A stretch of 64,000 nt of DNA from contig JADGCS010000003.1 of assembly GCA_015228875.1 (NCBI GenBank), forward strand, positions 20,473-84,472, read 5' to 3'. Shown one piece after another: positions 46,236 to 64,000 of this stretch. A model generated the notes under the pieces. That model saw only the letters and a list, made by a program, of their open reading frames with translations, did not search any database and was not told the origin of the DNA. The first letter of the stretch is position 1; each line of letters opens with the position of its first letter. This stretch comes from Deltaproteobacteria bacterium (GTDB lineage: Bacteria; UBA10199; JADGCS01). A program made the position numbers and the translations under genes.

Positions 46236-46250
46236 CAAGTTAGTAACTTG
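46236..46250. repeat. R2 core palindrome CAAGTTAGTAACTTG (isolated copy)
   Basis: Exact 15-mer identical to 12636-12650. Confidence 0.7.
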
Positions 46251-46358
46251 TGTTTTTGTTATCGGGTTCTGCTGCGTGATGTTGCGTAAAATCACAAAAA
46301 AATTTGCCACCAAGAACCACCGATCCGTTATCCTAAAAACATCTATAGGGCGTGTTGA

Positions 46359-46449
46359 CAAGTTACTAACTTGACTTTGACGCGGTTGTATTCTTCCATT
46401 TTGCGAGGAATGCACCCGCGCTCTGTCGACTTTGAAATTCCTATACATC
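46359..46449. repeat. R2 repeat copy b
   Basis: CAAGTTACTAACTTGACTTTGACGCGGTTGTATTCTTCCATTTTGCGAGGAATGCACCCGCGCTCTGTCGACTTTGAAATTCCTATACAT. Confidence 0.75.
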
Positions 46450-48348: not shown

Positions 48349-49884
48349 TTACTCTTCGAGAAGTTTAACCCTGTCCTCAAGGCTCATCTGCATCACCGCA
48401 TTGGCATCGCTGTGATTAATTTTAACCAGGGATTTTTCGAGATCAAAATCTGGAGAAAACTTTGGAGTGTGGCAGGACACGCAGGATTTTTTGGTGGCCT
48501 CTTTTTGTGCCGTCTTGTCTTTTTTGGACACATGGGGGCCTCCCCTATCGTGACAGTTTTCGCAGGTCACATTTTGAAACCAGGGAGGCACACGCACAAT
48601 TTCCTCTCCTGTTTTTGGATTTTTGATCGACTTAAAACCGCCCTCTGTATTGAAACCCACCGTGTGACAGCCGACACAGGCGGGATTGACGTCTTCACCC
48701 CTGATTTCAAGGGTTCGCCAGGCCCGGGCATGCCTTGTTACCGCCCATGAGGTATATTCTTTTTGATGACAGATGGCGCACGCATCAACCCCGCTGTATT
48801 TTTTTTCGTCGAGCTGGGGTTGATTCTGGATCCCCAGAATGTCCCTTAACAGCGTCAGGTAATTATTGTCCATGTTCTCCGAGTAACCTGTCCCATGCAG
48901 ACGAATAAGGCCTTGCCTGTCGATCACAAAATTTTCTGGAACAGCCCCTTCGTCGGAAAATAATTTTCTGATCTCTCTTTTGGGATCAGCAATGATCGGC
49001 CATGTGTACTTAAAAGAGTCATAGAGCTTTTTTTCCTCGCCCTCAAGTGCCACGGCGGAGACGGCAATCACTTCTAAACCCTTAAGTTTAAACTCGGGGT
49101 AAATTTTTTCGTTTAAAAATTTCATCTCGTGCTGGCAATGAGGACAGCGCGGCGAAAAAAACAACACAATGACAGCCTTTCCCCTGTAGGAACTCAGTTT
49201 AATCTCCTTGCCGTCTACTGTTTTTGCGGTAAATTCGGGGGCCGCAGGGCGGGTGCCCAGTTCTGGATGCCTCGCATCGTATGCCTTGATGCTTAAATTT
49301 TCCCTGAGATAATCGAGAAATATTTTTTCACCACCGGCCATACCGGAAAAGGCGTAGCGCTTGATTCCAAATGAAGGTTTGTGATCCTTTGCAGAGAGAC
49401 CCACAAGGCACACCTCGTGTTCCACATTAAATCTCTCGGCAATTTTAAGCGCGGCATCTTCAAGGATCACGGGAAAATCGATCTGTTGAATCTTTAAAAA
49501 ATCACCGATTTTGTCCCTGTCGTTGTAATCGATATTAACAAGAAATATTTTGAAATTGTATTTTTGCTCAAAGGGCTTGAGTTTTTTTAGCGCGATCAGC
49601 ATATCCATCGCGTCTTTGTGCTTGATGCTAAAGAAACCCAGGATCAGCCTTTGATCCTGATACCGGGCAGAATCAAACAGCGCGCCATCAAGCATCTGCG
49701 CGCCAAAAGGCTGGTCGGCCTCCGCCTGCGGTCCATCGGGCTGCATTTTACCCTTGTCTGCAGTCATGGCGGGTTTGTGCGACGTGTCGTTTTTTGCGCC
49801 GTCTGTCGCCTTTCCCTTTGAACAGGCCCAAAGACACAGGGTCATCATGATCAACCAGATAGTAAGGTAAGTGTTTCGTTTCAT
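48349..49884 (-). CDS. lipoprotein fusing two thioredoxin-like (TlpA/ResA-type) domains to a C-terminal tetrahaem cytochrome c domain
   Basis: Signal [21 protein letters not shown]; redox Cxx[14 protein letters not shown]; four CxxCH: CAICH, CVGCH, CENCH, CVSCH. Confidence 0.7.
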
Positions 49885-51711: not shown

Positions 51712-52419
51712 TTATTCCCTTTTCGTTCCCCAAAAAAACATCGTGTGCGACTCGTTTGCCGCCACGATTTTATTTGTCTGCGGCAAAAAACCACCGGACC
51801 TTTTGATGCTGATGTGATTCTCCCCAAGGATCCCCTCAATCTCGTTAAAATCAAACCACGAGTGATGGGGATCGGGATCAAGACGTCCTGACGTAAACTC
51901 ACACCACCCGATATTTTTTGTGGTGAGAAAGATCTGGCCAGGGGCCTTGAGCCTCAGGCACAGGGCCCCTATAAAATCCGCCGGTCGGTGGCCGCATTGT
52001 TGCAGCGTCCCGATAGAGGTCACAAGGTCAAACCTCTGCCCGTCATCGGCAAGGGAAACAAGGTCGTCAGCAAAAAATTTTACATGGCCTGCAAGATTTT
52101 TTGACCGCGCCTCTTTGATAAGATCATTCACCGCGTCCACGCCAAACCTGTAAGGGACAGCGATCCCCGCCTTGTCCACATACTCAAATAACGCTCCTGT
52201 GGAACAGCCTGCATCGAGCCAGGTGTTGACACGCTGCCAGTCAACCAGCAAGTGACAGAGTTTAAAGCGGTTGAGCATGCTCTGATGACTTGACCACTTT
52301 GCCTTTTCGTAATCATTTTTTTTAAGACTGGCCTCGCGGTACTCCGCAATCACACCCTTGATGCTGATGTCCCTGTACTGTGACTTTGCGGGCGTCTGTT
52401 TTTTTTCTTTTACGGCCAT
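51712..52419 (-). CDS. class I SAM-dependent methyltransferase
   Basis: Motif I LDAGCSTGALFEYV; 235 aa. Confidence 0.65.
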   Translation of the reverse strand: MAVKEKKQTPAKSQYRDISIKGVIAEYREASLKKNDYEKAKWSSHQSMLNRFKLCHLLVDWQRVNTWLDAGCSTGALFEYVDKAGIAVPYRFGVDAVNDLIKEARSKNLAGHVKFFADDLVSLADDGQRFDLVTSIGTLQQCGHRPADFIGALCLRLKAPGQIFLTTKNIGWCEFTSGRLDPDPHHSWFDFNEIEGILGENHISIKRSGGFLPQTNKIVAANESHTMFFWGTKRE

Positions 52420-53381
52420 AAATGCAGGGTCACAAGTGACGATACAAACTTAAGCCCCATCTTTCTGTAAAAATTAAGTGCGGGGTAGTTGTTGGTCTGC
52501 GTCCCCACCTCGAGGATGTTAAAGTCATCGGCATAGTGTTTAAAAAAAACTTTAAAAAGCGAGTGCGCCACCTTTTTGTCCTGATACTTCGGGTGAACGG
52601 CGATGATGTTGAGATAGCCAAACTTGAGCCCCGGCCCCTGGGACAGTGCCCTGTCCCGTTCGCAACAGATCACACCCACAGGAACCCCCTTGTGTTTTGC
52701 AATCACCTTGCAGGTCTGCGGGTTATTTAAATGACTCTCTACAAGCCGTTTGTAAAAACGCGTCTTAAGCCTCTCCGTCATGCGGGTGTCGTTGTAAATA
52801 CGCCCCGTGACAAAGGCGTCCCTGGCAAACGCTGCTGTCTTTGATACATCACCGCTGCTTAATCTTTGCGCCGCTGTAAAGACAATCCCTCGGACAGATT
52901 GGGTACCCTTTAAGGCAGGCATATTTGGTGTGGCAATAAGGATATTGAGCGTGTCCACCACCTTAAAGCCGTGGCCCTGCAAGAGACTGAGCAGATCCTT
53001 ATTGTTGTCCGAGATCCGGACGGTCAGGAGTTTGATCCCCTGTTTTTTTGCCATGCGAACAATGTGGGCAAGGAGCGCCGCAATGGTAGCAGTTTCTGTG
53101 CCACAGATGTCAGCTACGGAGGCCACACGAAAACCAAATGTCCGGCGGTCCCACGCATTCTGCCGGAGGGTCAGAATGGACTTGAGCCCTCCCCCTGTTT
53201 CCAGACCAACAAGGCCGCGTGTGTTGTTAATGATCGTGCCTGCCTTGCGGTCCTTAAAATCGGGAGTGATGCTGCCAAGGTAATTCTGGTAATCGTGTTT
53301 GAAATACATACCCGCAAAGGCCTTAAGGTCGTGTCGTTTGGCGAGTGCAGCGTCTTTAATCATGCGGGTCTGTTGTACCAT
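52410..53381 (-). CDS. two-domain GNAT-family N-acetyltransferase (WecD-like)
   Basis: C-terminal GNAT core LNIIAVHPKYQDKKVAHSLFKVFFKHY…LNFYRKMGLKF; 323 aa. Confidence 0.5.
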   Translation of the reverse strand: MVQQTRMIKDAALAKRHDLKAFAGMYFKHDYQNYLGSITPDFKDRKAGTIINNTRGLVGLETGGGLKSILTLRQNAWDRRTFGFRVASVADICGTETATIAALLAHIVRMAKKQGIKLLTVRISDNNKDLLSLLQGHGFKVVDTLNILIATPNMPALKGTQSVRGIVFTAAQRLSSGDVSKTAAFARDAFVTGRIYNDTRMTERLKTRFYKRLVESHLNNPQTCKVIAKHKGVPVGVICCERDRALSQGPGLKFGYLNIIAVHPKYQDKKVAHSLFKVFFKHYADDFNILEVGTQTNNYPALNFYRKMGLKFVSSLVTLHLWP

Positions 53382-54487
53382 TAAACGAGTCCCTTCATTT
53401 TTATAAGCAGCGCATCGAGGTATTGATTTTTACCAATCTCCACGTCGCGTGCTTCCTTTGTATCAATGTGGCTGGACTCGATCAAGGCGGCAATCTGTTG
53501 CCTTCTCCTTGCAATGTCCTGAACCCACTTGGCATCGCACACCGAACAGAGCTTGCCCGTGTCTTCGATCGGCGTGTAGACCTTATCGATCAAGGCCCTG
53601 CGAAAAGCCTGTGCCCTTTCGTTGTTCCAAAGGACATGGTAAGGCGCTTCACTCACGTTGCCAAGGACATGAATAGACTCCCAGTCAATCGCGCACAGAG
53701 ACACATTGCCGTTTGGTCTGATGAGCAGACGGTCAAAGCCATTGATGCAGATCGGAAGTTCATCGGGACTCGTAAGCTCGTGGTATCTTCTTTTAATAAA
53801 CTTGGTTTCGTTTTTTATATCAAGCCCGCCCTGAAAGTTGAGCATGTCGCTCGTGTAAATGACATGAACCGGCAGATCACTGAAATATTCAAAGACCGTC
53901 GTCCTGCTCCCCAAGGCCATCTCGGTATTGACCGTTGAAATATTCACATAAACAGGGAGACCGCGTTCGTAATTCAGTCTCAGAAATTTAAGGATGTTGC
54001 CAAGCGTTTTTTTGAGCCTGGCGCCCTTTCTGAGTTTTGGGTAGACAGCGGGATCAACCGTATCAACAGAAAGCGCAAGCCGGTCCACCCTGTGCTTGAT
54101 GAGGCAGTCCATCACCTGATCGGTGAGGAGTGTGGCGTTGGTGATGATGTTGAGAAAAAAACCGGCGTCCTTTACCCTCTCGATCATCTTGAGGACTTCC
54201 TTATGAAGCAGCGCCTCACCATGATTGCCAAAGGTGATCGTCGAGGCGCGGCCTTCGGCCTGGGAGAGGATCTCGTTAAATGTTGCCATCGTCATGTCGG
54301 GGAACGGCTTAAATTTTTTGATGCTGTGAAAACACGAGGCGCACTTTATGTTGCACCTGTTGGCGATATCGACATCAAGGGCATCAGGCAGATAAGGCAC
54401 CACAGGGCATGGGTGCTTAAGAAATTCAAGCTGATTCTTAAAAAAATCAACCTGCATCTTTTTTTGTTTGGCGTTACCCCAGTGCAT
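53381..54487 (-). CDS. radical SAM protein with C-terminal SPASM-like Cys motifs
   Basis: CNIKCASCF (CxxxCxxC); C-terminal CSVCDAKW; start taken at internal ATG to limit overlap with WbqC-like gene. Confidence 0.65.
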   Translation of the reverse strand: MHWGNAKQKKMQVDFFKNQLEFLKHPCPVVPYLPDALDVDIANRCNIKCASCFHSIKKFKPFPDMTMATFNEILSQAEGRASTITFGNHGEALLHKEVLKMIERVKDAGFFLNIITNATLLTDQVMDCLIKHRVDRLALSVDTVDPAVYPKLRKGARLKKTLGNILKFLRLNYERGLPVYVNISTVNTEMALGSRTTVFEYFSDLPVHVIYTSDMLNFQGGLDIKNETKFIKRRYHELTSPDELPICINGFDRLLIRPNGNVSLCAIDWESIHVLGNVSEAPYHVLWNNERAQAFRRALIDKVYTPIEDTGKLCSVCDAKWVQDIARRRQQIAALIESSHIDTKEARDVEIGKNQYLDALLIKMKGLV

Positions 54488-55235
54488 GGACCTCCCTTGC
54501 AAGTTTAAGGACGTCCTTTTTTGTCGCGTTGCCCTGCACGATGATCTCGCCAGAGTCTGGCCCGTGATTAAACAAAAGATCAACAATCGAGAGGTGTGAG
54601 ACAAAACCACCGAGGTTTTGGGTGTATGCCGGGTGCTGGTAGCTCTGGTAATAGACCTTGATGTGATTATTTTTAAACGGGGTCTCGTCTATGTAATCCC
54701 TCCCCTGACAACCCGTGACGCAAAGGTCTGCCTTAAAACGAAGGCAGTGCTCCAAAACCCTCCCTGATTTTTTTTTGGCAAACCCAAGCTGCGATTCTTT
54801 TTCTACCCTTACCTTGATGCCAAGGGCCTCTATAAAAAATCCAAGCTGGTGAAAATTAAGGTCCGAAAGAAGCCCCCACTCCCTGTTAAAATACATGTCA
54901 TAAAAAAAATCGGCGTATCTTTTAAAGTAGGGGGTTTGTGTGTAGTGGCACCTTAAGGTCTCCCAATGGATGCGTGGCCAGTCAAATTTTGTGCCCGCCT
55001 TTGAGCGGTCGATGTGGATATCCTTGATGAGCCTGGACGCGCTGTGTTTGAGGTCAACGGGGACCGTCATCCAGAACGCGCCATTGGCCGTCTTGATACG
55101 GTTTCTGTTGTTAAAATCCCGCGTGAGGTACTGCACATCATCCATGTAGATAAAAATATCGGCAAGGCCAATCTTGTGAAAGAGTCCAATCCACGGGAGA
55201 TAGGCCGGTTGATGTCCGGTGATGATGGTTGTCAT
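54474..55235 (-). CDS. WbqC-family protein
   Basis: MTTIITGHQPAYLPWIGLFHKI… matches WbqC-like N-terminus (HQPxYLPWxGxF). Confidence 0.7.
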   Translation of the reverse strand: MTTIITGHQPAYLPWIGLFHKIGLADIFIYMDDVQYLTRDFNNRNRIKTANGAFWMTVPVDLKHSASRLIKDIHIDRSKAGTKFDWPRIHWETLRCHYTQTPYFKRYADFFYDMYFNREWGLLSDLNFHQLGFFIEALGIKVRVEKESQLGFAKKKSGRVLEHCLRFKADLCVTGCQGRDYIDETPFKNNHIKVYYQSYQHPAYTQNLGGFVSHLSIVDLLFNHGPDSGEIIVQGNATKKDVLKLAREVHALG

Positions 55236-56293
55236 GTCACATCCTTAAGCAGGATCATCTGGTCTTTTTTAATGTCACGATTAAGGCATTTTCCGATAAT
55301 CCTGTCGCGCTCGCAGGGTTTAAGCCCGTGCCCCGGCCTCTTGTACACTATGTGCGCCTGCGTGAGCTTAAGGCCCTTTTTAAGATCCAGGGCGGCCACA
55401 ACACTGCGGCGGTGTTTAAGCCTCATCTCGCACTCGGACGGCGCAGGGGCGATTTTGGGATCGCCCAGTATTGCCTCGGTCTCCCTGATGGCCTCAATAT
55501 ATTTTTTGAGTGCGTTTGGAGGAAGCGAAAACCGATGGTCGGGCCCCTTTAAGGTGCGTGACAGAGTGATGTGTTTCTCGATCACGCGCGCCCCCAGCGA
55601 GACCGCAACAACAGCCGCGTGCGTCCCCTCTGTGTGATCTGAGTAACCTGTCAAGACCCCGTACCGATCATGCAGGGACACAAGCCTTAAAAGATTGGCC
55701 TCGTGATGCGGTGTGGGGTAAAGCGACGTGCAGTGAAGAAGGATCACATCTTTGTGGTTGCGCCTTGTAAATATTTGGAGCGCCGTGTCGATCTCATCTT
55801 GATCTGCCATCCCCGTGGAAAGAATCACCGGTTTGCCGATCTTTGCAACACATTCTAAAAAATCGATGTTGATGAGGTCCTCGGAGGAAATTTTAAAAGC
55901 ATTTACCCCCAGCTTGTCCAGAAACAGCGCGGATTCACTGTCGCAGGGTGTGGACAGGAAACCAACCCGTCTTTTTTTGCAATGCCGAATGGTCAACTCG
56001 TACCAGTCAAGCGGGAGCTCCAGCCTTTTAAACATGGCGTAGGTTGTCTCGGTGATCCTCTTTTTGCCGTGCCTGTAAGAATATCGCGCGGTACGGTCCG
56101 CGATAAACTCGTCCGTGCGAAAGGTCTGAAACTTGACGAATGCAGCCCCTGCGTCGGCCGCCACATCAATGAGTCTGAGGACGTATGGAAAACGGGCATT
56201 GTGATTAATGCCGGCCTCTGCAATCACGCAAACAGGGGCATTTTGCGCAATGCTCACTTGGCCGATCTGAACCTGATGATTAAAACAGTCCAT
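55232..56293 (-). CDS. N-acetylneuraminate/pseudaminate/legionaminate synthase family (NeuB/PseI/LegI-like) with C-terminal SAF domain
   Basis: PVCVIAEAGINHN…FVKFQTF TIM-barrel signature; C-terminal antifreeze-like domain. Confidence 0.8.
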   Translation of the reverse strand: MDCFNHQVQIGQVSIAQNAPVCVIAEAGINHNARFPYVLRLIDVAADAGAAFVKFQTFRTDEFIADRTARYSYRHGKKRITETTYAMFKRLELPLDWYELTIRHCKKRRVGFLSTPCDSESALFLDKLGVNAFKISSEDLINIDFLECVAKIGKPVILSTGMADQDEIDTALQIFTRRNHKDVILLHCTSLYPTPHHEANLLRLVSLHDRYGVLTGYSDHTEGTHAAVVAVSLGARVIEKHITLSRTLKGPDHRFSLPPNALKKYIEAIRETEAILGDPKIAPAPSECEMRLKHRRSVVAALDLKKGLKLTQAHIVYKRPGHGLKPCERDRIIGKCLNRDIKKDQMILLKDVT

Positions 56294-56301
56294 CGTTATA
56301 A

Positions 56302-56390
56302 CATAACCCGCACAAAGCTGAAAACACTACGCGGTCTGGCACATCGTAAAATATTGTTGCCGAAACGCGTAGAAAAAACCTACCTAGTCC
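56302..56390 (+). repeat. R1 repeat, copy 5 (diverged centre)
   Basis: CATAACCCGCACAAAGCTGAAAACACTACGCGGTCTGGCACATCGTAAAATATTGTTGCCGAAACGCGTAGAAAAAACCTACCTAGTCC. Confidence 0.75.
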
Positions 56391-56486
56391 TTCGACAACT
56401 TAATTTTTATCTTTCTAGATTGCTCAGGACTAGTGCTGAGCGTTTAATAATTTTCTAATAAAGAAAATTATTAAATTGTCGAAGCA

Positions 56487-57326
56487 CTAGGTTCCGATAA
56501 AGGATTTAAAATTACCGGCATAAATTTTTTTATTCAGCCCCTTGTCAAGTTTGAGTGCCTCGAATTTTTTGATCACTGCCCCCTGACTGTGGTCGGGCTG
56601 AAACGGAAAGTCCGTGCCAAAAACAAGGTGATGCGGCTCCAACACTTGGGAGGCAAGTCCTACAAGTCGCATGGACTCTGGAACAGATGTAATAAAACGC
56701 ACATTGTTAAAATACTTTTTAACCGGTCCATAGGTGTAATGAAAACAGAGGAGCCCACCAAGGTGCGGGGCCAGGACCTTGAGTTCGGGATGCCTTTTAA
56801 TCAACGCAAAGAGGTCTGCAGGGCCATCGCCCTGTGGTGCGCCAAGCACATAACTCACATGGGGAAGCAGCAGCATCTTGTTTTTAACAAGACACTCGGC
56901 AAAGGAAAAAAAAACCTTGCTGCTTAAAGACACACCCTGCCACGCAGGAATAACCTTGACACCAAGAAAGCCGTAATCGTTTTTAAATCTTTGAACCGCA
57001 TCGCGCGATTTTTTTTTATTGACCAGATTGACAATGCCAAGCCCATACAGCCTGTCGGGGTAACGCCGGCACGACTCATATATATAGCGGTTGTTCTGCT
57101 GGTTGAGTGCGTCATCGCAAAAGGGGAGTCCCATGATGAGAGAACTGCCAATGCGGTTTTGATCCATTGACCGGATGAGCGCCCCTGTGGTTGCAAGTTT
57201 CAGGGCCTTTTTGCCGTCGGGGTGTGTGAGGATGGCTCGTCTTAAAAAGGGTTCTCGACCGGGACGCATCCCCATCTCTTTGGTGATTTCGGGTGAAATC
57301 AGATGAACCTCGGCATCGATAATCAT
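56487..57326 (-). CDS. amidohydrolase-2 family (TIM-barrel metal-dependent hydrolase)
   Basis: MIIDAEVHL… N-terminus and GTDFPF C-terminal motif typical of PF04909. Confidence 0.6.
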   Translation of the reverse strand: MIIDAEVHLISPEITKEMGMRPGREPFLRRAILTHPDGKKALKLATTGALIRSMDQNRIGSSLIMGLPFCDDALNQQNNRYIYESCRRYPDRLYGLGIVNLVNKKKSRDAVQRFKNDYGFLGVKVIPAWQGVSLSSKVFFSFAECLVKNKMLLLPHVSYVLGAPQGDGPADLFALIKRHPELKVLAPHLGGLLCFHYTYGPVKKYFNNVRFITSVPESMRLVGLASQVLEPHHLVFGTDFPFQPDHSQGAVIKKFEALKLDKGLNKKIYAGNFKSFIGT

Positions 57327-57402
57327 ATTAAAAATCCCCGTTCGTCCCAATCATAGACCCTCATAACGTGCAATGACAAGAATAATATCGATTGCCCCCT
57401 CT

Positions 57403-57491
57403 CATAACCCGCATGAAGCGAAAGATACTACGCGGGCCGGCTCCTCATAAAATATTGATGCCGAAACGCGTAGAAAAAACCTACTTAGGTT
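57403..57491 (+). repeat. R1 repeat, copy 6
   Basis: CATAACCCGCATGAAGCGAAAGATACTACGCGGGCCGGCTCCTCATAAAATATTGATGCCGAAACGCGTAGAAAAAACCTACTTAGGTTC. Confidence 0.8.
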
Positions 57492-57534
57492 CTAAAATTG
57501 ATCTTTCAACGGCATTTGTCTATGACTTAAAAAA

Positions 57535-59046
57535 GTGAAAGTAACCTTTATCAATCCCTGCCTTAAAAAGGGGCCTCAAAAAAACCAGATAGATGGCGGT
57601 GATTTTTCCTTTGGGATCGCCATACTGTCCGCGCATCTCAGACAATCAGGCATTGCCACCTCGCTCATTCAGATCACAAGGGACTTTACAGACAATGAGA
57701 TCCAATCAATCATCACAGCACACCCATCACCACTTTACTGTTTTTACATCCTGACCCACTTTCTCGCTCCTTTAAAACAATGGATCAGGGTGATCAAAGA
57801 GACAACAAGTTCGTTTGTGGTGTGTGGGGGGACAGCGGTGTCTGTAAATCCCGATGAAATCATGGAAGATCTGGGCGTTGATGCCGTTTGCATTGGTGAG
57901 GGTGATGAAGCCCTGATCGAACTCGCTCGCTCTTTTGACAGCGGTAAGATTGATCACACGATTCGCAATCTGTGGTTTCGCAACAAGGACACCATCATCA
58001 AAAACCCATTAAGACCGCTTTGGCGCAATCTCGATACGCTCCCCCATTATGACATGACCCTGTTTGATCTCCACAACCTCAGAACCATGAGATACAGGCT
58101 CCCCTACCTGCCCGTGATGGTGTCAAGGGGCTGCGCCTTTGCCTGCAGCTACTGCTCAAACAACCGTCTGCACGGCATCTACAAAGGGCTTGGCCGCTTT
58201 GTCAGGTTTATGTCCCCCAAGAGGGCCGTTGATGAAATCCAGCACATGCTTCAGTCATTAAACAAACCAACGACGCTCAACTTCTCCGATAATACCTTCG
58301 ACACATCCCGAAAATGGATCTTTGATTTCTGCCGCCTGTACCAAAAACAAATTGGTCTCCCCTTTCGGGCCATGGGTAGAGTCGAGCGGTTGGACGATGA
58401 GATATGCCGCATCCTTAAAGATGCTGGCTGTTTCAGATTCACCGTTGGAATCGAAAGCGGTTCCGAAAATATCAGATACAATTACCTCAACCGCAGGATA
58501 CCCGATCATAAAATACTCAAGGGCATTTTGGCCCTGCGCACAAACGGCATACAGACGGCAACCTACAACATGTGCGGCCTTCCCAGCGAAACACGCGAGG
58601 ACATGTTAAAAACAATCAAGTTAAACGCCGCAGCCAAAGTGGACTTTGCCAGTTGTTCGATCTTCTGGCCTTACAGGGGAACAGCCCTTTATGACAAGGC
58701 CGATGAACAAAATCTGATATGCGCAAACAGCAATCACCGCCAGCTCAGCAGTGTTTATGAAGATTCCATCCTCAACATTGACGACAAATTAAAGGCCCAT
58801 ATACGTTTTACATCCCAGTGCTTTTTTAAACTGGTCTACCTGTATCGGATGTGCCATGAAGGGGTGTGTCTCGCGAGCGACACGACAGAGGCCACGCTTG
58901 ACAACCTCTACCTTGGCGATGACAAGGGAGAGTTCATCAAACTGTTTTCTGTTCTTGGGCTCAATGATCTGGAAAACAACCTTTACGAAAAATTTGAAAC
59001 ACCGATCTTACACGATGTGTCCCGTATAACCGGTCACCCACAATAA
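57535..59046 (+). CDS. B12-binding-domain radical SAM protein
   Basis: GTG start; N-terminal B12-binding-like region; radical SAM CAFACSYCSNN. Confidence 0.65.
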   Translation: MKVTFINPCLKKGPQKNQIDGGDFSFGIAILSAHLRQSGIATSLIQITRDFTDNEIQSIITAHPSPLYCFYILTHFLAPLKQWIRVIKETTSSFVVCGGTAVSVNPDEIMEDLGVDAVCIGEGDEALIELARSFDSGKIDHTIRNLWFRNKDTIIKNPLRPLWRNLDTLPHYDMTLFDLHNLRTMRYRLPYLPVMVSRGCAFACSYCSNNRLHGIYKGLGRFVRFMSPKRAVDEIQHMLQSLNKPTTLNFSDNTFDTSRKWIFDFCRLYQKQIGLPFRAMGRVERLDDEICRILKDAGCFRFTVGIESGSENIRYNYLNRRIPDHKILKGILALRTNGIQTATYNMCGLPSETREDMLKTIKLNAAAKVDFASCSIFWPYRGTALYDKADEQNLICANSNHRQLSSVYEDSILNIDDKLKAHIRFTSQCFFKLVYLYRMCHEGVCLASDTTEATLDNLYLGDDKGEFIKLFSVLGLNDLENNLYEKFETPILHDVSRITGHPQ

Positions 59047-59053
59047 TCAAACC

Positions 59054-61018
59054 ATGTGCGGCATTTTTTTGCATTTGACCACCACACCTGATCCCGAAGT
59101 CCTTCATAAAACCTACAGAAATCTTTCCGCAAATCTCTCCCACCGCGGGCCGGATGCCATGGGCGTTTCTGCAATCCCTGCCAATCCTCACAGGCCTTTA
59201 AATCCTGTGATCAAAGAAAAAAACGGAGCAAACTTAAGTCTGTTCTGTCCACTCGATGACAGTTATTTTAAGAACTGCATGGGCTTTATGGGACAGCACC
59301 GCCTCTCGATTATCGATCCCGACCCAAGGGCCGGCCAGCCCATGACCGACGCCTCGTCCATGGTCGCTGTTGTTTTTAACGGCGAGATTTATAATTACAT
59401 CAAACTCAAGGCCCAGCTGCAAAAACAGGGGCACTGTTTTACAACCACATCGGACACAGAGGTCCTGCTCCACGCGTACCTCGAATGGGGGGACACCTGC
59501 TTTAACAGGTTTAATGGCGATTTTGCGATCATCATCTACGACCACAGAACCCGCCAACTCATCGGAGCACGAGACCGTTTCGGGATCAAGCCTCTCTTTT
59601 ATTATTGCGGCAACAACACAATCACCCTGGCGTCCGAACTCAAGGGATTTATTAATCTGCCGGGATTTGTACCCCAACTGAACACGCAGACGGCCTATCA
59701 TTACCTGGTGGCAAACTTTCCAAACCAAACCACCCTCCAAAATACCTTTCTCAAAAATATTCACCCCGTCCCAGGTGCCCACGTTTTTAAAATCAGCGCC
59801 AGCACCCATGCCATCACCTTTTCGCGCTACTGGGACCTTGACAACACGCCCCCAAGTCACAACAGCACTGACCAACGCAGCATTGTAGAAGGCTTTGAGT
59901 CTCTCTTTAACGACGCCGTAAAAATACGTTTACGGTCAGACGTCCCACGCGGACTCATGCTTTCCGGCGGTATTGACTCCCCCTCCATCGCGTCTTGCGC
60001 CGTCAAGACGGCACAAGACATCCCAAGCTTCAGCTGCGTCTTTAAGGGTTTTATAGAGGACGAATCCGTTTTGATTGACGAAATCGCAGAACACCTCGGC
60101 TTGATAAATATTAAACACGAGCAGGGGTTTTCTGATTTTTTTATGGAACTGCGCGACCTCGTCTGGCTGCAAGATGAACCCTTCACAACCCTTAATGTCT
60201 ATTCACAGTATAAGCTTCTCAAAATCGCAAGAACGCACGGGGTCAAGGTTATCCTGGACGGAACAGGTGCTGATGAGTTTCTTGCCGGATACACAGACTA
60301 CAGAATCCCTGCAGCCCTCGACACACACGACACATCTTTTCTGTCAGGCGAAGAAAAAATTCTGATTGATCACATCACGTCTCTGTCCAAAAATGAATTT
60401 TACAAATGGTGCGAGGCACATCAAAAAGACGAAAGAAGCGTCCCCTACATCAACAAGGACTGGAAACAAAAAAATGTCGTGCCTCTGACAGACATCGAAC
60501 GCCCCCTCGACCCGCTTTATATCGGACTGCATCAGGGTTCGTATCTTAAACATGCCTTAAAACACTCTCTGCAACAATCATGGATGAACAAATCCGTGGC
60601 ATGGGATAATCGGTATCTTGACAGAAACGGCATGTCGCTGGGCATTGAGGGAAGGGTTCCTTTTCAGGATCACAGACTGGTTGCGTACGCTTTTGGTTTG
60701 CCCGTGGCCCTGCTTCACCACAAGGGGCTTTCCAAGGTGATTTTAAGGGAAACACTCAACAACAGTCTCCCTGATCACATCACGTCAAATCCCTGTAAAA
60801 AGGGATTCACATTTCCTTTTGTATCACTGATTGCCAAAGATAATCATTACCACAATTTTTTTATGTCTCTGGCAAAAAATTTAAACCCGCTCATGACGGA
60901 GCTTGTTGAACCTCAAAAAGTCATCGCTGAACTTGACAGGATGAAAAACCAAATATCGTCCCAGTACAATCTGTGGAGGGTTTTTAATCTGTCGCTCTGG
61001 TGTGATTTATTTTTATAA
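59054..61018 (+). CDS. asparagine synthetase (glutamine-hydrolysing) family amidotransferase (AsnB/PseA/WbpS-like)
   Basis: N-terminal MCGI (Cys2 nucleophile); PP-loop LSGGIDSPSI; 654 aa. Confidence 0.8.
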   Translation: MCGIFLHLTTTPDPEVLHKTYRNLSANLSHRGPDAMGVSAIPANPHRPLNPVIKEKNGANLSLFCPLDDSYFKNCMGFMGQHRLSIIDPDPRAGQPMTDASSMVAVVFNGEIYNYIKLKAQLQKQGHCFTTTSDTEVLLHAYLEWGDTCFNRFNGDFAIIIYDHRTRQLIGARDRFGIKPLFYYCGNNTITLASELKGFINLPGFVPQLNTQTAYHYLVANFPNQTTLQNTFLKNIHPVPGAHVFKISASTHAITFSRYWDLDNTPPSHNSTDQRSIVEGFESLFNDAVKIRLRSDVPRGLMLSGGIDSPSIASCAVKTAQDIPSFSCVFKGFIEDESVLIDEIAEHLGLINIKHEQGFSDFFMELRDLVWLQDEPFTTLNVYSQYKLLKIARTHGVKVILDGTGADEFLAGYTDYRIPAALDTHDTSFLSGEEKILIDHITSLSKNEFYKWCEAHQKDERSVPYINKDWKQKNVVPLTDIERPLDPLYIGLHQGSYLKHALKHSLQQSWMNKSVAWDNRYLDRNGMSLGIEGRVPFQDHRLVAYAFGLPVALLHHKGLSKVILRETLNNSLPDHITSNPCKKGFTFPFVSLIAKDNHYHNFFMSLAKNLNPLMTELVEPQKVIAELDRMKNQISSQYNLWRVFNLSLWCDLFL

Positions 61019-61043
61019 TTCTGCCTGGAGTTGCAGCTCGCCC

Positions 61044-61736
61044 CTATTTTATGTTTCTCGCTGCAACGGTGTAGTACGAGACAGGTATTTCTTCGTCAAA
61101 ATTGACGTTTCTAAGTACAAAACCAATTTTCTCTGTTTCGAAGTTGTATTTCGTCAAAAATGCAACCGACTCCTCACGATTCCAGAACCGTGTGTGATAG
61201 CTGCTGTCTTTGTAGTTTATTTGATACACATTGTCCTCCACAAGCACAGCCCCCTTAAACTTTTTGTCCTCTGGGGCCATAAACGAAATCAGAAGACGGC
61301 CGTCTTTTCTCAGAACGCGTTTTAATTCCTGCATGGTTTTTTCGAGTTCCCCGTTTTCCACAACATTGTTGATGACACCCCAACAGAGCAGCAAATCAAA
61401 GGCATCGTCTGCAAAATCAATTTGGCTGCAGGAACCAGGTTTAAGATCCGCATCCAGCCCCTCGGTCTCAAGAAATTTTTGTGCATACACAAGGGCCGAC
61501 GGTGATGTCTCAATTCCCGATGCTGCAAAACCCTCCCGCGCAAAGAGAACAACATGCCGCCCCGACCCACAACCAACATCCAGGATTTTTTTTATGGAGG
61601 GATCTTTTTTGACGGTGGTGTAAAGATAAGAAACGAGGATCTCATCCGGGTACTTGAGGAGTTCCTGTCCCTGCCTGTAAATGGTTTCGTAGATTTGTTG
61701 ATTGATACGATCCCTTGTTGGAACTTCTTTATTCAC
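61044..61736 (-). CDS. class I SAM-dependent methyltransferase
   Basis: Motif I LDVGCGSGRHVVLFA; 230 aa. Confidence 0.65.
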   Translation of the reverse strand: MNKEVPTRDRINQQIYETIYRQGQELLKYPDEILVSYLYTTVKKDPSIKKILDVGCGSGRHVVLFAREGFAASGIETSPSALVYAQKFLETEGLDADLKPGSCSQIDFADDAFDLLLCWGVINNVVENGELEKTMQELKRVLRKDGRLLISFMAPEDKKFKGAVLVEDNVYQINYKDSSYHTRFWNREESVAFLTKYNFETEKIGFVLRNVNFDEEIPVSYYTVAARNIK

Positions 61737-61748
61737 TTTGTTTGGTGC

Positions 61749-62786
61749 TCAAGTTAAAATACATTCGACGATCTTTTGATTGCGCTCTTTACAACCATCG
61801 AAGTAATTTTCGAAAGCAAGCCCCCCCTCCCATGCCGTACACTTATGACACATGATATTGTGAGAGACAAGAAGCCCCTTGTTCTTTTTTATGATGGCCT
61901 CCCGGACCTGCTTGAATTTTTCTCCAAACCAGACATCCTTGACACCACTGTCAAAGGCATTCCCCGCACAGTAATCACCGCTCGTCGACCCGCAGACTGG
62001 TATGTCTCCATTGGACAGGATGACCAGTATTTTAAAAGGGAGCAGGCAGGAGGCAGAGAGTTCCCCGTCATCACTCATCCTGTCCTTTTCAAATCCTTTG
62101 CCTGCGCGGGTGTAAGCATGGGGCAAATAGATATTATCAACTCCCTTGCCGCTCCAGAATTTTGTAAAGGCCTCCGATTCGTTTTTGTTGATATCCATCT
62201 GTACAGAGCTGATACTGACAAATGTGCCTTGGCCAAGTGATTTATTTATGTCGATAAAATGCAGAATATTTTTAAGCGTCTCCTCGTAATAACTCTTTTT
62301 TTGAACACCAACAGGGATGCGTATCCGGTCATAAGTCTCTTTTTCAATCGAATCGAAAGAGAATTGAATCCTGTCAAGACCTGATTTAAAAAGGGCCTGG
62401 CTGGTTTTTTCATCAAGTAAAGTGGCGTTGGTGATGACCGAGACATGAAAGTTAAACTTTTTCGCATATGAAATCTTCTCAACGAGGGACGGGTCGATGA
62501 GGGGTTCTCCTATTCCTGTAATGGTGATTCTTGGAAAAAAACCCAAGGCATAAAACTCGTCAATAATTCTGACAAAGTTTTCATGAGTCATGGTCTTTAC
62601 ATCCCTTTTCATGTCCCCGCGAGAGCACATGGGGCACTGCAGATTACAGGCATTTGTTGACTCTATATAGACATGCTGGGGGAAAATACAAAATTCACCT
62701 CCGGTCAAAACAAACCTGGTAAAATCGATTTCGGACTCAAGAAAATGAGAAACTGTTTTTATTTGTGCCTGTGAATGGCGACTCAT
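61749..62786 (-). CDS. radical SAM/SPASM-domain protein
   Basis: CNLQCPMCSRGD (CxxxCxxC); C-terminal extra Cys pairs (CGSTSGDYCAGNAF…CHKCTAWEGG). Confidence 0.7.
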   Translation of the reverse strand: MSRHSQAQIKTVSHFLESEIDFTRFVLTGGEFCIFPQHVYIESTNACNLQCPMCSRGDMKRDVKTMTHENFVRIIDEFYALGFFPRITITGIGEPLIDPSLVEKISYAKKFNFHVSVITNATLLDEKTSQALFKSGLDRIQFSFDSIEKETYDRIRIPVGVQKKSYYEETLKNILHFIDINKSLGQGTFVSISSVQMDINKNESEAFTKFWSGKGVDNIYLPHAYTRAGKGFEKDRMSDDGELSASCLLPFKILVILSNGDIPVCGSTSGDYCAGNAFDSGVKDVWFGEKFKQVREAIIKKNKGLLVSHNIMCHKCTAWEGGLAFENYFDGCKERNQKIVECILT

Positions 62787-62938
62787 ACGGTTATGGACAT
62801 AAAAAACAGAGACGGGCTTTTTTTACAAAAAATTTTGTCGGGATGACTTAGGTTTCTTTTTGTTCGCTTTTTAAGCCACTGGCTGCGGTCGCTCCGGTTC
62901 AAATCCAGTTCAAAATACGCCACTGTTTTTTTAAAGTG

Positions 62939-63013
62939 TCGGGGTGACTGGATTTGAACCAGCGACATCTTGCTCCCAAAGCAAGCACTCTAGCCGGGCT
63001 GAGCTACACCCCG
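62939..63013 (-). tRNA. tRNA-Pro (anticodon UGG)
   Basis: Minus-strand CGGGGUGUAGCUCAGCCCGGCUAGAGUGCUUGCUUUGGGAGCAAGAUGUCGCUGGUUCAAAUCCAGUCACCCCGA folds as cloverleaf: 7-bp acceptor, anticodon stem CUUGC/GCAAG with loop UUUGGGA (UGG), T-arm GCUGG-UUCAAAU-CCAGU, discriminator A; CCA not encoded. Confidence 0.8.
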
Positions 63014-63223: not shown

Positions 63224-64000
63224 ATGAATCACGAACTGCCTTTTGAGTCCTATCTGATATCCGTCGCCCGCCCCATTAAAATAACAGCACAAAAAGAACG
63301 TGAACAGATCATCCGCGAACAGTATTATAACCTCTTTAAAATACCCTCACCCAAGGTGATGATCGACATGCTCACAGATTCCGGCACAGGCGCGATCAGT
63401 AACGAGCAGCTCGCCGGCATCATTGTGGGAGACGAAAGTTACGCGGGCTCAGTCTCGTTTGAAAAAATGAAACGGGCCATCAACGATATCACGGGTTTTA
63501 ATTTTATCATCCCGACACATCAGGGCCGCGGGGCCGAGAACGTGCTCCACTCTGCCATCGTAAAAGACGGCGATGTCGTCCCGGGCAACACGCACTTTGA
63601 CACCACCAAGGCACACATAGAATTTAGAAGGGCCACAGCCGTAGACTGCACCATCGACGAATCAAAAGAAACCAGCAACGAACACCCCTTCAGGGGTAAC
63701 CTCGACCTTAAAAAACTTGAAGCGGTTTTTTTAAAGACACCAAAGGAAAAAATCCCCTTCACCCTTATCACCATCACCTGCAATTCGGGCGGCGGACAAC
63801 CTGTGTCCCTGTCCAATATTCTTGCCGTAAAAAAACTCTGCAAAAAATACAATATCAGACTTTTTTTCGATATGGCGCGTTTTGCCGAAAACGCCTACTT
63901 TATCAAGACGCGGGAAAAAGAATACCAGAGCTGGCCCATCCTCGATATCTGCCGCGAAATGTTTAAAGACGCAGATGGTGCAACCATGTCTGCAAAAAAA
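63224..64000 (+). CDS. tryptophanase/tyrosine phenol-lyase family (beta-eliminating lyase), 5' portion; continues beyond window
   Basis: ATG 63224 with AAGGAG RBS; MNHELPFESYLISVARPIK…DMLTDSGTGAISNEQLAGIIVGDESYAGSVSF…FIIPTHQGRGAENVL closely parallels TnaA/TPL N-terminal region; not in ORF track because open at window end. Confidence 0.75.
   Translation, partial: MNHELPFESYLISVARPIKITAQKEREQIIREQYYNLFKIPSPKVMIDMLTDSGTGAISNEQLAGIIVGDESYAGSVSFEKMKRAINDITGFNFIIPTHQGRGAENVLHSAIVKDGDVVPGNTHFDTTKAHIEFRRATAVDCTIDESKETSNEHPFRGNLDLKKLEAVFLKTPKEKIPFTLITITCNSGGGQPVSLSNILAVKKLCKKYNIRLFFDMARFAENAYFIKTREKEYQSWPILDICREMFKDADGATMSAKK

What the first reader, a model, noticed from the sequence alone, without database searches (positions are those of the whole stretch)
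51712..62786. Glycan-tailoring cluster: NeuB-like synthase + WbqC + AsnB-like amidotransferase + GNAT + two methyltransferases + amidohydrolase + three radical-SAM enzymes, next to tRNA-Pro and flanked internally by R1 repeats
The gene content resembles flagellin or LPS nonulosonic-acid modification islands (NeuB/PseI-type synthase, PseA-like AsnB amidotransferase, acetyl- and methyl-transferases). It additionally has a B12-dependent radical SAM, a SPASM radical SAM and a third radical SAM. These are unusual in sugar pathways and would imply C-methylation or other radical chemistry on the sugar, or a hybrid glycan/RiPP pathway. The expected CMP-sugar synthetase, aminotransferase and dehydratase are not in the window. 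Two R1 copies (56302, 57403) bracket the amidohydrolase gene.
Basis: partly seen in the sequence, partly recalled or inferred. Interest (0 to 1): 0.65.

Follow-up and report, generated by a model that had tools for sequence, protein, structure and literature searches.

The report
Radical-SAM-rich pseudaminic-acid-type sugar tailoring island
Ten adjacent genes form the synthase-plus-decoration half of a pathway for a nine-carbon sialic-acid-like surface sugar of the pseudaminic acid type; it includes three oxygen-sensitive radical enzymes, recurs in several groups of uncultured anaerobes, and makes a product that nobody has characterised.

Summary
Window 51712-62786 encodes ten intact genes:
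- a NeuB-family synthase
- WbqC
- an Amidohydro_2 protein
- a double GNAT
- two SAM methyltransferases
- an AsnB-type amidotransferase
- one B12-binding radical SAM

tRNA-Pro lies next door. The R1 copies are real, but they belong to a repeat dispersed across the window (six copies).

The gene set is not a chance neighbourhood. One metagenomic operon (L067) carries orthologs of 9 of the 10 genes at 37-63% identity. Subsets recur in Omnitrophota, Victivallales, Bacteriovoracaceae and Desulfobacterota, including cultured Desulfonatronum thiosulfatophilum. In those relatives the set sits inside pseudaminic-acid clusters: PseB and PseC score above their curated cut-offs, PseG scores just above its cut-off in L067, and PseF-like and PIG-L genes are present.

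The window lacks all five of those genes by tblastn, so this is a split-off synthase-plus-tailoring island. The closest solved relatives of the radical SAMs act on carbohydrates (BtrN, AprD4, BlsE, DesII). I found no precursor peptide, protease or transporter, so I reject the RiPP reading.

The product and the individual steps are inferred, not shown. I rate it a new variant of a known kind, with moderate interest.

The parts
51712..52419 (-). g1: SAM-dependent methyltransferase, 235 aa. It is the free-standing equivalent of the C-terminal half of the PseG-methyltransferase fusion proteins found in relatives.
   Evidence: Pfam Methyltransf_25/23/11. It aligns to residues about 314-547 of the 548-aa fusion in L001 and is 45% identical to the L067 ortholog.
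52410..53381 (-). g2: two-domain GNAT N-acyltransferase, 323 aa. It occupies the PseH position in the cluster.
   Evidence: Pfam Acetyltransf_1 at residues 207-309 plus a weaker N-terminal GNAT hit. There is a sub-threshold match to WecD, the dTDP-4-amino-4,6-dideoxygalactose acyltransferase. Homologs at 26-35% identity occupy the same position in L001, L004, L009, L010 and L013.
53381..54487 (-). g3: radical SAM enzyme with a truncated SPASM (twitch-like) domain, 368 aa.
   Evidence: Radical_SAM + SPASM. It has the CxxxCxxC motif, and the family keeps only 4 invariant auxiliary Cys. The AF2 model (pLDDT 89) best matches BtrN bound to its substrate (E 1.3e-12). Orthologs at 50-59% identity occur in L011, L013, L065, L066 and L067.
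54474..55235 (-). g4: WbqC-family protein, 253 aa; biochemistry unknown.
   Evidence: PF08889, 226 bits. It is 48-55% identical to homologs that always lie next to NeuB and Amidohydro_2 in relatives. The AF2 model is confident (pLDDT 96.7) but has no solved-structure match.
55232..56293 (-). g5: NeuB-family nonulosonic acid synthase with a SAF domain, 353 aa.
   Evidence: PF03102 278 bits + SAF. It scores below the equivalog cut-offs of both NeuB (354 vs 400) and PseI (287 vs 340). It aligns full-length to SpsE, PseI and NeuB structures, and I recognised the AEAGINHN, SDHT and EKH motifs in that alignment.
56302..56387 (+). R1 repeat copy, in the spacer between Amidohydro_2 and NeuB.
   Evidence: In relatives these two genes overlap or abut.
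56487..57326 (-). g6: Amidohydro_2-family protein of a rare subfamily, 279 aa.
   Evidence: PF04909. It is 54% identical to the L001 ortholog. Only 14 representatives reach E<=1e-30 among 1.84 billion. The canonical N-terminal HxH reads D-A-E-V-H here.
57403..57488 (+). R1 repeat copy, between the divergent g6 and g7 genes.
57535..59046 (+). g7: B12-binding-domain radical SAM enzyme, 503 aa.
   Evidence: PF02310 + PF04055; CxxxCxxC at residues 200-207. The best PDB hit by sequence is AprD4 (8.7e-15). The ortholog in L067 is 55% identical.
59054..61018 (+). g8: AsnB-type glutamine-dependent amidotransferase, 654 aa.
   Evidence: TIGR01536 382 bits, above the 267 cut-off; N-terminal MCG. Orthologs at 42-50% identity lie next to the g3-type SPASM gene in L013, L065 and L067.
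61044..61736 (-). g9: SAM-dependent methyltransferase, 230 aa.
   Evidence: Pfam. It is 63% identical to the L067 ortholog, which lies between the g10-type SPASM gene and the g7-type B12 radical SAM gene.
61749..62786 (-). g10: second radical SAM/SPASM enzyme, 345 aa; only 26% identical to g3.
   Evidence: Pfam; comparison with g3. The best PDB hit is BtrN (4e-8). The ortholog in L067 is 53% identical.
62938..63013 (-). tRNA-Pro(tgg); marks the right-hand border of the island.
   Evidence: ARAGORN, Rfam. Beyond it a tryptophanase-like frame runs to the window end.

Best explanation
The ten genes are one functional unit. They form the condensing-enzyme-plus-tailoring half of a pseudaminic-acid-type nonulosonic acid (NulO) pathway. 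That pathway is conserved, with shuffled gene order, in a small set of mostly uncultured anaerobes.

Inferred working, step by step:
1. A 2,4-diamino-2,4,6-trideoxy-hexose is made by PseB, PseC and PseG enzymes. These are encoded elsewhere in this genome.
2. The double GNAT (g2) N-acylates this hexose, taking the PseH role.
3. The NeuB-family synthase (g5) condenses it with phosphoenolpyruvate.
4. The always-linked trio WbqC (g4), Amidohydro_2 (g6) and methyltransferase (g1) remodels an N-acyl group, most plausibly at N5. One possibility is an (N-methyl)acetimidoyl-type group, as PtmG and PtmH make on legionaminic acid.
5. AsnB (g8) supplies glutamine-derived ammonia to an ATP-activated carbonyl, giving an amide or amidine.
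6. The two BtrN-like SPASM/twitch radical SAMs (g3, g10) abstract hydrogen from the sugar or its side chain. The outcome could be oxidation of a secondary alcohol, epimerisation or decarboxylation.
7. The B12-binding radical SAM (g7), with methyltransferase g9, adds a methyl group to an unactivated carbon or performs AprD4-like dehydration.

What is shown: the domains, the intact catalytic motifs, the gene linkage across phyla, and the Pse-type context. What is inferred: the substrate of each enzyme, the order of steps and the final structure.
For: Domains and motifs are intact:
- All three radical SAMs carry CxxxCxxC, and AsnB keeps its Cys2 nucleophile.
- The NeuB motifs that I take to be catalytic are present.

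Gene linkage:
- L067 has orthologs of g10, g9, g7, g8, g3, g1, g6, g4 and g5 in one co-directional operon, at 37-63% identity.
- L013 has seven of the ten genes on a 9.8-kb contig.
- L001, L004, L007, L008, L009, L010, L011, L012, L063, L065 and L066 carry subsets.
- Every g3-family member on a contig of at least 20 kb shares that contig with a WbqC or NeuB homolog. I inferred this from matching contig lengths.

Pse-type context in relatives:
- PseB scores 515 and 555 bits against a 408 cut-off.
- PseC scores 498 bits against 424.
- PseG scores 154.3 bits against 153.55.
- The PseF-like protein scores 144 bits, below its 206 cut-off.

The closest solved relatives of the radical SAMs all act on sugars or aminocyclitols:
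- BtrN is the best hit by sequence for g3 and g10 and the best hit by fold for g3.
- BlsE and DesII are also among the top fold matches.
- AprD4 is the best hit for g7.

Precedents in the literature:
- PtmG and PtmH make acetamidino and N-methyl-acetimidoyl legionaminic acid (PMC3766260; bioRxiv 10.64898/2026.04.20.719630).
- An AsnB is proposed for the C5 acetamidino group of Pse in T. forsythia (PMC6120980).
Against: - The window has no PseB, PseC, PseG, cytidylyltransferase, PIG-L, glycosyltransferase or flippase. Whether this genome can feed the synthase is therefore unknown.
- NeuB scores below both the NeuB and PseI equivalog cut-offs, and higher on the NeuB model than on the PseI model. 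The stereochemistry (Pse versus Leg or another type) is not settled.
- That PtmG belongs to the WbqC family is my recollection and was not tested.
- The WbqC fold gave no informative structural match.
- PF04909 members are mostly decarboxylases, lactonases or hydratases. The role I give to g6 is speculative.
- The radical SAM matches to BtrN and AprD4 are at superfamily level (15-19% identity). RiPP maturases such as SuiB score almost as well.
Confidence: 0.72

Rival explanations
1. It is a RiPP or hybrid glycan/RiPP cluster. The SPASM and B12 radical SAMs mature a ribosomal peptide, and AsnB acts as a lasso-type cyclase or amidating enzyme.
For: SPASM radical SAMs and B12 radical SAMs are common RiPP maturases. 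NCBIfam lists sub-threshold similarity to WgkB, StsB, ApyD and the lasso cyclase. SuiB, CteB and SkfB are among the top fold matches to g3.
Against: - No plausible precursor ORF, protease or transporter lies in or beside the cluster.
- All the RiPP-family scores are far below their cut-offs.
- The same radical SAMs are always embedded among PseB, PseC, PseG, PseF-like, NeuB and WbqC genes in other phyla.
- The g3 family keeps only four auxiliary cysteines, like BtrN.
Confidence: 0.03
2. It makes a diffusible small molecule, such as an aminoglycoside- or nucleoside-like natural product built on an ulosonic acid, and not a cell-surface glycan.
For: The best characterised relatives of the radical SAMs (BtrN, AprD4, BlsE, DesII) all come from antibiotic pathways. 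The window has no glycosyltransferase or flippase.
Against: Relatives carry CMP-sugar-type cytidylyltransferases, GT2 glycosyltransferases, ABC or flippase-like genes and sulfotransferases next to the set. In Dethiosulfatarculus the sub-module lies between flagellar genes and a GT2-TPR gene.
Confidence: 0.07
3. It is an orphaned, non-functional remnant. The island was separated from its core pse genes by rearrangement, possibly linked to the R1 repeats, and no longer makes a product.
For: Five genes that are nearly always adjacent in relatives (PseB, PseC, PseG, PseF-like, PIG-L) are missing from 64 kb. Gene order is shuffled relative to L067, one segment (g7-g8) is inverted, and R1 copies sit in two intergenic spacers.
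Against: All ten ORFs are full-length with intact catalytic motifs. Overlapping stop and start codons in the NeuB-WbqC-g3-g2-g1 string indicate a maintained operon. Split NulO loci are common (my own knowledge). The contig extends 22 kb beyond the window, and I could not see the rest of the MAG.
Confidence: 0.1
4. The pathway logic is the same, but the sugar is not pseudaminic acid. The synthase makes a legionaminic-, neuraminic- or other-configured NulO from a precursor supplied in trans.
For: g5 scores higher on the NeuB/LegI-type model (354 bits) than on PseI (287 bits), and below both cut-offs. L008 carries a second, Leg-type set (NeuC, PglD, a long PglF-like protein) beside the module.
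Against: Relatives that carry the orthologous NeuB clade encode an inverting PseB, PseC and PseG. These are Pse-specific, and PseB and PseC score above their cut-offs.
Confidence: 0.15

Closest known systems
Pseudaminic acid biosynthesis pathway PseB-PseC-PseH-PseG-PseI-PseF (Campylobacter/Helicobacter)
   Same: It has a NeuB-family condensing enzyme with a SAF domain and an N-acyltransferase in the PseH position. Orthologous clusters in other organisms contain PseB and PseC above the curated cut-offs, PseG and a PseF-like enzyme.
   Different: The window itself lacks PseB, PseC, PseG and PseF. The synthase is below the PseI cut-off. The cluster adds seven genes that the canonical pathway does not have: WbqC, Amidohydro_2, AsnB, an extra methyltransferase and three radical SAMs.
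Campylobacter and Legionella legionaminic-acid tailoring genes ptmG (Cj1324) and ptmH (Cj1325)
   Same: There, a small protein of unknown fold plus a SAM methyltransferase convert the 5-acetamido group of a CMP-NulO to acetamidino and N-methyl-acetimidoyl (PMC3766260). Here WbqC and methyltransferase g1 are tightly linked next to NeuB.
   Different: That PtmG is a WbqC-family protein is from memory and was not tested. To my knowledge the Campylobacter locus has no Amidohydro_2 partner. Here Amidohydro_2 always accompanies WbqC, and in the wider WbqC family a PIG-L deacetylase is the usual neighbour (32 of 34 loci of at least 8 kb carry one).
Tannerella forsythia protein O-glycosylation cluster (pseBCFHGI + asnB + methyltransferases)
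   Same: It is a Pse cluster with an AsnB-type amidotransferase, proposed for the C5 acetamidino group, and several SAM methyltransferases (PMC6120980).
   Different: That paper's text mentions no radical SAM (0 occurrences). I did not check its cluster for WbqC or Amidohydro_2. The AsnB assignment there is itself only proposed.
Carbohydrate-modifying radical SAM enzymes of aminoglycoside, nucleoside and deoxysugar pathways (BtrN, AprD4, BlsE, DesII)
   Same: These are the best solved relatives of g3 and g10 (BtrN, BlsE, DesII) and of g7 (AprD4). The g3 family has a single auxiliary cluster like BtrN. This makes radical hydrogen abstraction from a sugar carbon plausible.
   Different: Identity is only 15-19%. 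The pathways, substrates and organisms all differ. The functional analogy is an inference.
Class B (cobalamin-dependent) radical SAM methyltransferases such as GenK, Fom3 and PhpK
   Same: g7 has the B12-binding + radical SAM architecture, with sub-threshold hits to HpnJ, PhpK and BchE.
   Different: No family cut-off is reached, and the best score (110 bits) is far below. Its best solved relative, AprD4, is a dehydratase and not a methyltransferase.

Membership tests
Canonical pseudaminic acid cluster (PseBCHGIF) | PseB, the inverting UDP-GlcNAc 4,6-dehydratase (TIGR03589) | tested here: not met
   There is no hit anywhere in the 64-kb window by tblastn or Pfam. It is present above cut-off in relatives L001 and L063.
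Canonical pseudaminic acid cluster (PseBCHGIF) | PseC aminotransferase (TIGR03588) | tested here: not met
   Absent from the window. Present above cut-off in relative L001 (498 bits against 424).
Canonical pseudaminic acid cluster (PseBCHGIF) | PseH N-acetyltransferase (TIGR03585) | tested here: inconclusive
   g2 is a two-domain GNAT with a sub-threshold WecD match and no PseH hit. It occupies the PseH position in relatives. L067 has a formyltransferase there instead.
Canonical pseudaminic acid cluster (PseBCHGIF) | PseG UDP-sugar hydrolase (TIGR03590) | tested here: not met
   Absent from the window. g1 corresponds only to the methyltransferase half of the PseG-MT fusion found in relatives. 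The PseG of L067 scores 154.3 bits against a 153.55 cut-off.
Canonical pseudaminic acid cluster (PseBCHGIF) | PseI synthase (TIGR03586) at or above cut-off | tested here: not met
   g5 scores 287 bits against a 340 cut-off, and 354 bits against 400 for the NeuB model. Family-level membership (PF03102 + SAF) is clear.
Canonical pseudaminic acid cluster (PseBCHGIF) | PseF CMP-sugar synthetase | tested here: not met
   There is no CTP_transf_3 homolog in the window. PseF-like genes are present in relatives.
NeuB family (PEP-dependent nonulosonic acid synthases) | NeuB TIM-barrel domain plus C-terminal SAF domain, with the motifs I take to be the metal-binding His motifs | tested here: met
   PF03102 at 1e-82 and PF08666. 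The alignment to SpsE and PseI shows the AEAGINHN, SDHT and EKH motifs.
Radical SAM / SPASM-twitch enzymes | CxxxCxxC radical SAM motif plus a C-terminal Cys-rich auxiliary-cluster domain | tested here: met
   g3 has C86/C90/C93 (409-aa ORF numbering) plus 4 invariant C-terminal Cys in the family (C247, C265, C314, C317 in 368-aa numbering). g10 has C47/C51/C54 plus 5-7 C-terminal Cys.
Class B cobalamin-dependent radical SAM methyltransferases | N-terminal B12-binding domain + radical SAM core; methyl transfer to carbon or phosphorus | tested here: inconclusive
   The architecture is met (PF02310 at 9.5e-10, PF04055). No equivalog cut-off is reached. Catalytic activity cannot be tested with these tools.
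RiPP biosynthetic gene cluster | Short precursor-peptide gene plus protease and/or transporter beside the maturase | tested here: not met
   ORF listings down to 20-30 aa cover the two R1-containing spacers and the region right of g10. They show only repeat-derived or overlapping frames. No peptidase or ABC gene lies in the cluster.
PtmG/PtmH acetamidino and N-methylacetimidoyl tailoring system | PtmG-family protein (recalled to be WbqC/PF08889) with an adjacent SAM methyltransferase acting on a CMP-NulO | not tested
   WbqC and methyltransferase g1 are present and linked. No PtmG sequence was available to compare. The function of PtmG and PtmH is taken from PMC3766260.
AsnB (glutamine-hydrolysing asparagine synthase family, TIGR01536) | N-terminal Cys nucleophile, GATase domain and Asn_synthase PP-loop domain, scoring above cut-off | tested here: met
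   382 bits against a 267 cut-off; MCG N-terminus. The genomic context argues for a glycan-amidating paralog, not housekeeping asparagine synthesis.

The most novel reading that the evidence does not exclude
These would be the first radical SAM enzymes dedicated to nonulosonic-acid biosynthesis. Two BtrN-like twitch enzymes and a cobalamin-domain radical SAM would turn a pseudaminic-type sugar, or its 6-deoxy-hexose precursor, into a derivative that is C-methylated, oxidised or aminated, or otherwise modified on its carbon skeleton. Such a sugar class would be confined to anaerobes. The WbqC-Amidohydro_2-methyltransferase trio would be a previously unrecognised route to N-acyl or amidino remodelling that does not depend on PseA.
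Probability: 0.4. Interest if true: 0.7.

Novelty: new variant of a known kind. Interest (0 to 1): 0.55.

Why it matters
Nonulosonic acids (sialic, pseudaminic and legionaminic acids) decorate flagella, S-layers and lipopolysaccharides. They shape motility, phage and immune recognition, and cell charge. As far as I know, all characterised pathways use conventional tailoring enzymes that need no oxygen-sensitive radical chemistry.

A conserved gene set that welds three radical SAM enzymes, and an uncharacterised WbqC/Amidohydro_2 pair, onto a pseudaminic-acid pathway points to sugar chemistry that has not been described. It may be the way anaerobes diversify these sugars.

The hypothesis is directly testable, because two cultured bacteria carry related gene sets: a related cluster in Desulfonatronum thiosulfatophilum and the methyltransferase-Amidohydro_2-WbqC-PIG-L sub-module in Dethiosulfatarculus sandiegensis. 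Full-text searches of the open literature found no paper that links radical SAM enzymes to nonulosonic acid biosynthesis.

Tried and rejected
- **Source contig.** I tried to retrieve the contig beyond the window by exact-protein look-up with g5 and g10. Neither is on record, so I could not see whether pseB, pseC, pseG and pseF lie in the remaining 22 kb. The MAG is also not among the GTDB representative genomes scanned.
- **PtmG and the WbqC family.** I looked for a literature statement that PtmG/Cj1324 belongs to the WbqC family. The papers I could search or open do not say so, and the Howard 2009 paper is not held.
- **RiPP reading.** Rejected for lack of a precursor, protease or transporter, and because of the Pse-type synteny.
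- **R1 repeats as a cluster-specific signal or mobile-element boundary.** Rejected. R1 has six dispersed copies in the window, predicted hairpins with no covariation support, no Rfam match and no integrase or transposase nearby.
- **Promoter and terminator scans.** Counts were not above the shuffled expectation.
- **Horizontally acquired tRNA-linked island.** G+C content of 0.44-0.50 is within the window's range, so there is no compositional support for this idea.

Full report
**1. What is there**

The region 51712-62786 holds ten intact genes.

Six genes lie on the minus strand and read, in the direction of transcription:
- Amidohydro_2 (g6, 57326-56487)
- a NeuB-family synthase with a SAF domain (g5, 56293-55232)
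- WbqC (g4)
- a radical SAM/SPASM enzyme (g3; the true start is at 54487, giving the 368-aa protein that NCBI annotates)
- a two-domain GNAT (g2)
- a SAM methyltransferase (g1)

The last five have overlapping or abutting stop and start codons.

Two genes are divergent on the plus strand: a radical SAM with a B12-binding domain (g7) and an AsnB-type amidotransferase (g8). Two more converge on them: a second methyltransferase (g9) and a second radical SAM/SPASM enzyme (g10).

tRNA-Pro(tgg) follows at 62938-63013. After it, a tryptophanase-like frame runs off the window end. To the left are a PF03601 membrane protein, an AhpC-cytochrome c fusion and seryl-tRNA synthetase. The island is therefore sharply bounded.

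The catalytic motifs are intact:
- All three radical SAMs carry CxxxCxxC, and AsnB keeps its Cys2 nucleophile.
- NeuB aligns over its full length to SpsE, PseI and NeuB structures, with the AEAGINHN, SDHT and EKH motifs present.

**2. The R1 repeats**

Copies at 56302-56387 and 57403-57488 do flank the amidohydrolase gene. R1 is, however, a roughly 90-nt structured repeat with six copies in the window. It has three predicted hairpins, no covariation support and no Rfam match. One copy lies in frame inside the mfd gene.

R1 is a repeat dispersed across this window and is not part of the cluster's function. Its only local relevance is that one copy sits in the spacer between Amidohydro_2 and NeuB. 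In relatives those two genes overlap or abut.

**3. The gene set is a conserved unit**

The nearest NeuB homologs outside the source MAG are only 46-52% identical. Even so, every one I looked up lies in a syntenic cluster.

The clearest case is L067. In one co-directional operon it carries:
- a g10-type SPASM enzyme (53% identity)
- a g9 methyltransferase (63%)
- a g7 B12 radical SAM (55%)
- a g8 AsnB (50%)
- a g3-type SPASM enzyme (59%)
- a g1 methyltransferase (45%)
- a g6 Amidohydro_2 (37%)
- a g4 WbqC (52%)
- a g5 NeuB (49%)

That is nine of the ten window genes. A formyltransferase stands where the window has its GNAT.

L013 has seven of the ten on a 9.8-kb contig. L065 and L066 carry the g3-type SPASM enzyme beside NeuB, WbqC and Amidohydro_2.

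Gene order differs between loci while gene content is kept, which is the signature of functional coupling.

Carriers named by the genome records are Omnitrophota, Victivallales, Bacteriovoracaceae and Desulfobacterota. They include the cultured Desulfonatronum thiosulfatophilum and Dethiosulfatarculus sandiegensis.

The set is rare:
- The g6-type Amidohydro_2 has 14 representatives at E<=1e-30 among 1.84 billion.
- The g3 subfamily had 27 members in the 5.8-billion-protein search.

**4. It belongs to a pseudaminic-acid-type pathway**

In the relatives the set is embedded among the following genes:

| Gene | Score | Curated cut-off |
|---|---|---|
| PseB (TIGR03589), L001 and L063 | 515 and 555 bits | 408 |
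| PseC (TIGR03588) | 498 bits | 424 |
| PseG, L067 | 154.3 bits | 153.55 |
| PseF-like cytidylyltransferase | 144 bits | 206 (below cut-off) |

PseG is also often fused to the g1-type methyltransferase. A PIG-L deacetylase is usually present as well, often with GFO/DegT pairs, GT2 glycosyltransferases and sulfotransferases.

PseB and PseG are specific to the pseudaminic route. The window's own NeuB is below both equivalog cut-offs and scores higher on the NeuB model than on PseI. I therefore call the sugar 'Pse-type' and keep another configuration as a rival.

The window lacks PseB, PseC, PseG, the cytidylyltransferase, PIG-L and any glycosyltransferase (tblastn; Pfam). It is a split-off synthase-plus-tailoring island. 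I could not reach the rest of the contig or the MAG.

**5. Sub-modules and what they suggest**

*Methyltransferase g1 (with or without PseG), Amidohydro_2, WbqC and NeuB.*
- These are adjacent in nearly all relatives.
- In Dethiosulfatarculus the methyltransferase-Amidohydro_2-WbqC-PIG-L set occurs without NeuB. It lies between flagellar fliK/flgD genes and a sulfotransferase plus a GT2-TPR gene. This is a hint that flagellin is the target.
- In the wider WbqC family from metagenomes, 32 of 34 loci of at least 8 kb carry a PIG-L deacetylase. PIG-L is also the commonest gene immediately downstream of WbqC (25 of 80 loci). A DegT-type aminotransferase is present in 26 of the 34 and NeuB in 18.
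- WbqC therefore works on amino sugars whose N-acetyl group is being removed or remodelled.
- The only experimental precedent I know is PtmG/PtmH, which convert CMP-Leg5Ac7Ac to the acetamidino and N-methyl-acetimidoyl forms (PMC3766260). That PtmG is a WbqC-family protein is my recollection and was not tested.
- The WbqC model is confident but matches no solved structure.

*AsnB and the g3-type SPASM enzyme.*
- These are adjacent in L013, L065 and L067.
- An AsnB has been proposed to make the C5 acetamidino group of Pse in Tannerella forsythia (PMC6120980).

*The g10-type SPASM enzyme, methyltransferase g9 and the B12 radical SAM g7.*
- These are adjacent in L067.

**6. The radical SAM enzymes**

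- By sequence, g3 and g10 hit BtrN best among solved structures. They also hit BlsE and PqqE.
- By sequence, g7 hits AprD4 best.
- The g3 model (pLDDT 89) matches BtrN bound to SAM and its aminocyclitol substrate best (E 1.3e-12, TM 0.74 on the target). BlsE and DesII are among the top hits, but so are the peptide maturases SuiB, CteB and SkfB.
- The g3 family conserves only four auxiliary cysteines, which means one auxiliary cluster, as in BtrN.

This favours hydrogen abstraction from a sugar carbon, leading to oxidation, epimerisation or decarboxylation. It does not prove it. For g7 both C-methylation and AprD4-like dehydration remain open.

**7. Rivals**

- **RiPP or hybrid reading.** It fails on the absence of a precursor, protease or transporter, and on the constant Pse-type context.
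- **Diffusible natural product.** This is less likely because relatives carry CMP-activation and glycosyltransferase genes.
- **Non-functional remnant.** This cannot be excluded without the genome, but it is disfavoured by ten intact genes with coupled reading frames.

**8. Novelty**

Full-text searches that combined 'radical SAM' with pseudaminic, legionaminic or nonulosonic acid, or with N-acetylneuraminate synthase, returned nothing on this topic. WbqC is essentially undescribed in the searchable literature.

The kind of system is known: a NulO biosynthesis and tailoring cluster. The conserved addition of three radical SAM enzymes and the WbqC/Amidohydro_2 pair is a new, uncharacterised variant. 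Interest is moderate. It is a well-supported lead with cultured organisms available for testing, but no chemistry has been shown.

Noticed in passing
window 15094-15183 (inside mfd ORF 12640-16302, minus strand): One R1 repeat copy lies in frame inside the transcription-repair coupling factor gene. It falls between the UvrB-interaction and RID domains and is translated as ...PHKAANTTRADTVQKLMPERVTKTYPGS.... This is an apparent repeat insertion tolerated within a housekeeping protein. Another copy (16819-16902) lies within the N-terminal part of a TPR-protein ORF.
   Followed up: partly
metagenome loci L068-L147: In the wider WbqC family, 32 of 34 loci of at least 8 kb carry a PIG-L-family deacetylase. 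PIG-L is also the commonest gene immediately downstream of WbqC (25 of 80 loci), and a DegT-type aminotransferase is the commonest immediately upstream (13 of 80). This suggests a conserved aminotransferase-WbqC-deacetylase unit of unknown chemistry. The window's WbqC lacks the PIG-L partner.
   Followed up: partly
L063 15571-20750+ (Desulfonatronum thiosulfatophilum): A giant protein of 1915 aa combines GT2, radical SAM and GT2 domains. It lies just downstream of the related Pse-type cluster and a sulfotransferase.
   Followed up: no
L065, L066, L067 (for example L067 2222-3442): A DUF4915 / TIGR03032-like protein of about 400 aa recurs next to NeuB or the SPASM genes in three relatives. It is absent from the window.
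   Followed up: no
window 38016-38078 and 42266-42328: A 63-nt sequence, 98% identical between the two copies, precedes two large genes of unknown function (38136-39893, with no Pfam hit; 42398-44587, with an fn3 domain). It looks like a duplicated upstream or promoter region.
   Followed up: no
window 36290-36359, 46161-46251 and 46358-46448: A second repeat family of about 70-90 nt is present, with direct copies at 91% identity and an inverted pair 106 nt apart. It is unrelated to R1.
   Followed up: no
window 21713-21856 and 29175-29318: A 144-nt direct repeat (86% identity) lies 7.5 kb apart. One copy sits just upstream of the MopE/FG-GAP repeat protein gene and the other inside the Ser/Thr kinase-TPR ORF.
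   Followed up: no
window 48349-49884 (minus strand): One 511-aa protein fuses a peroxiredoxin (AhpC/TSA) domain to a multihaem cytochrome c (c554/CXXCH) domain.
   Followed up: no
window 21980-24913: A 977-aa protein has five MopE-type Cu-binding repeats about 160 nt apart (seen as DNA repeats at 22517-23208) followed by FG-GAP repeats.
   Followed up: no
window 63230-64000 (plus strand): An open frame running off the window end resembles tryptophanase / tyrosine phenol-lyase, judged by eye from the translation. It marks the right-hand neighbour of the island.
   Followed up: no
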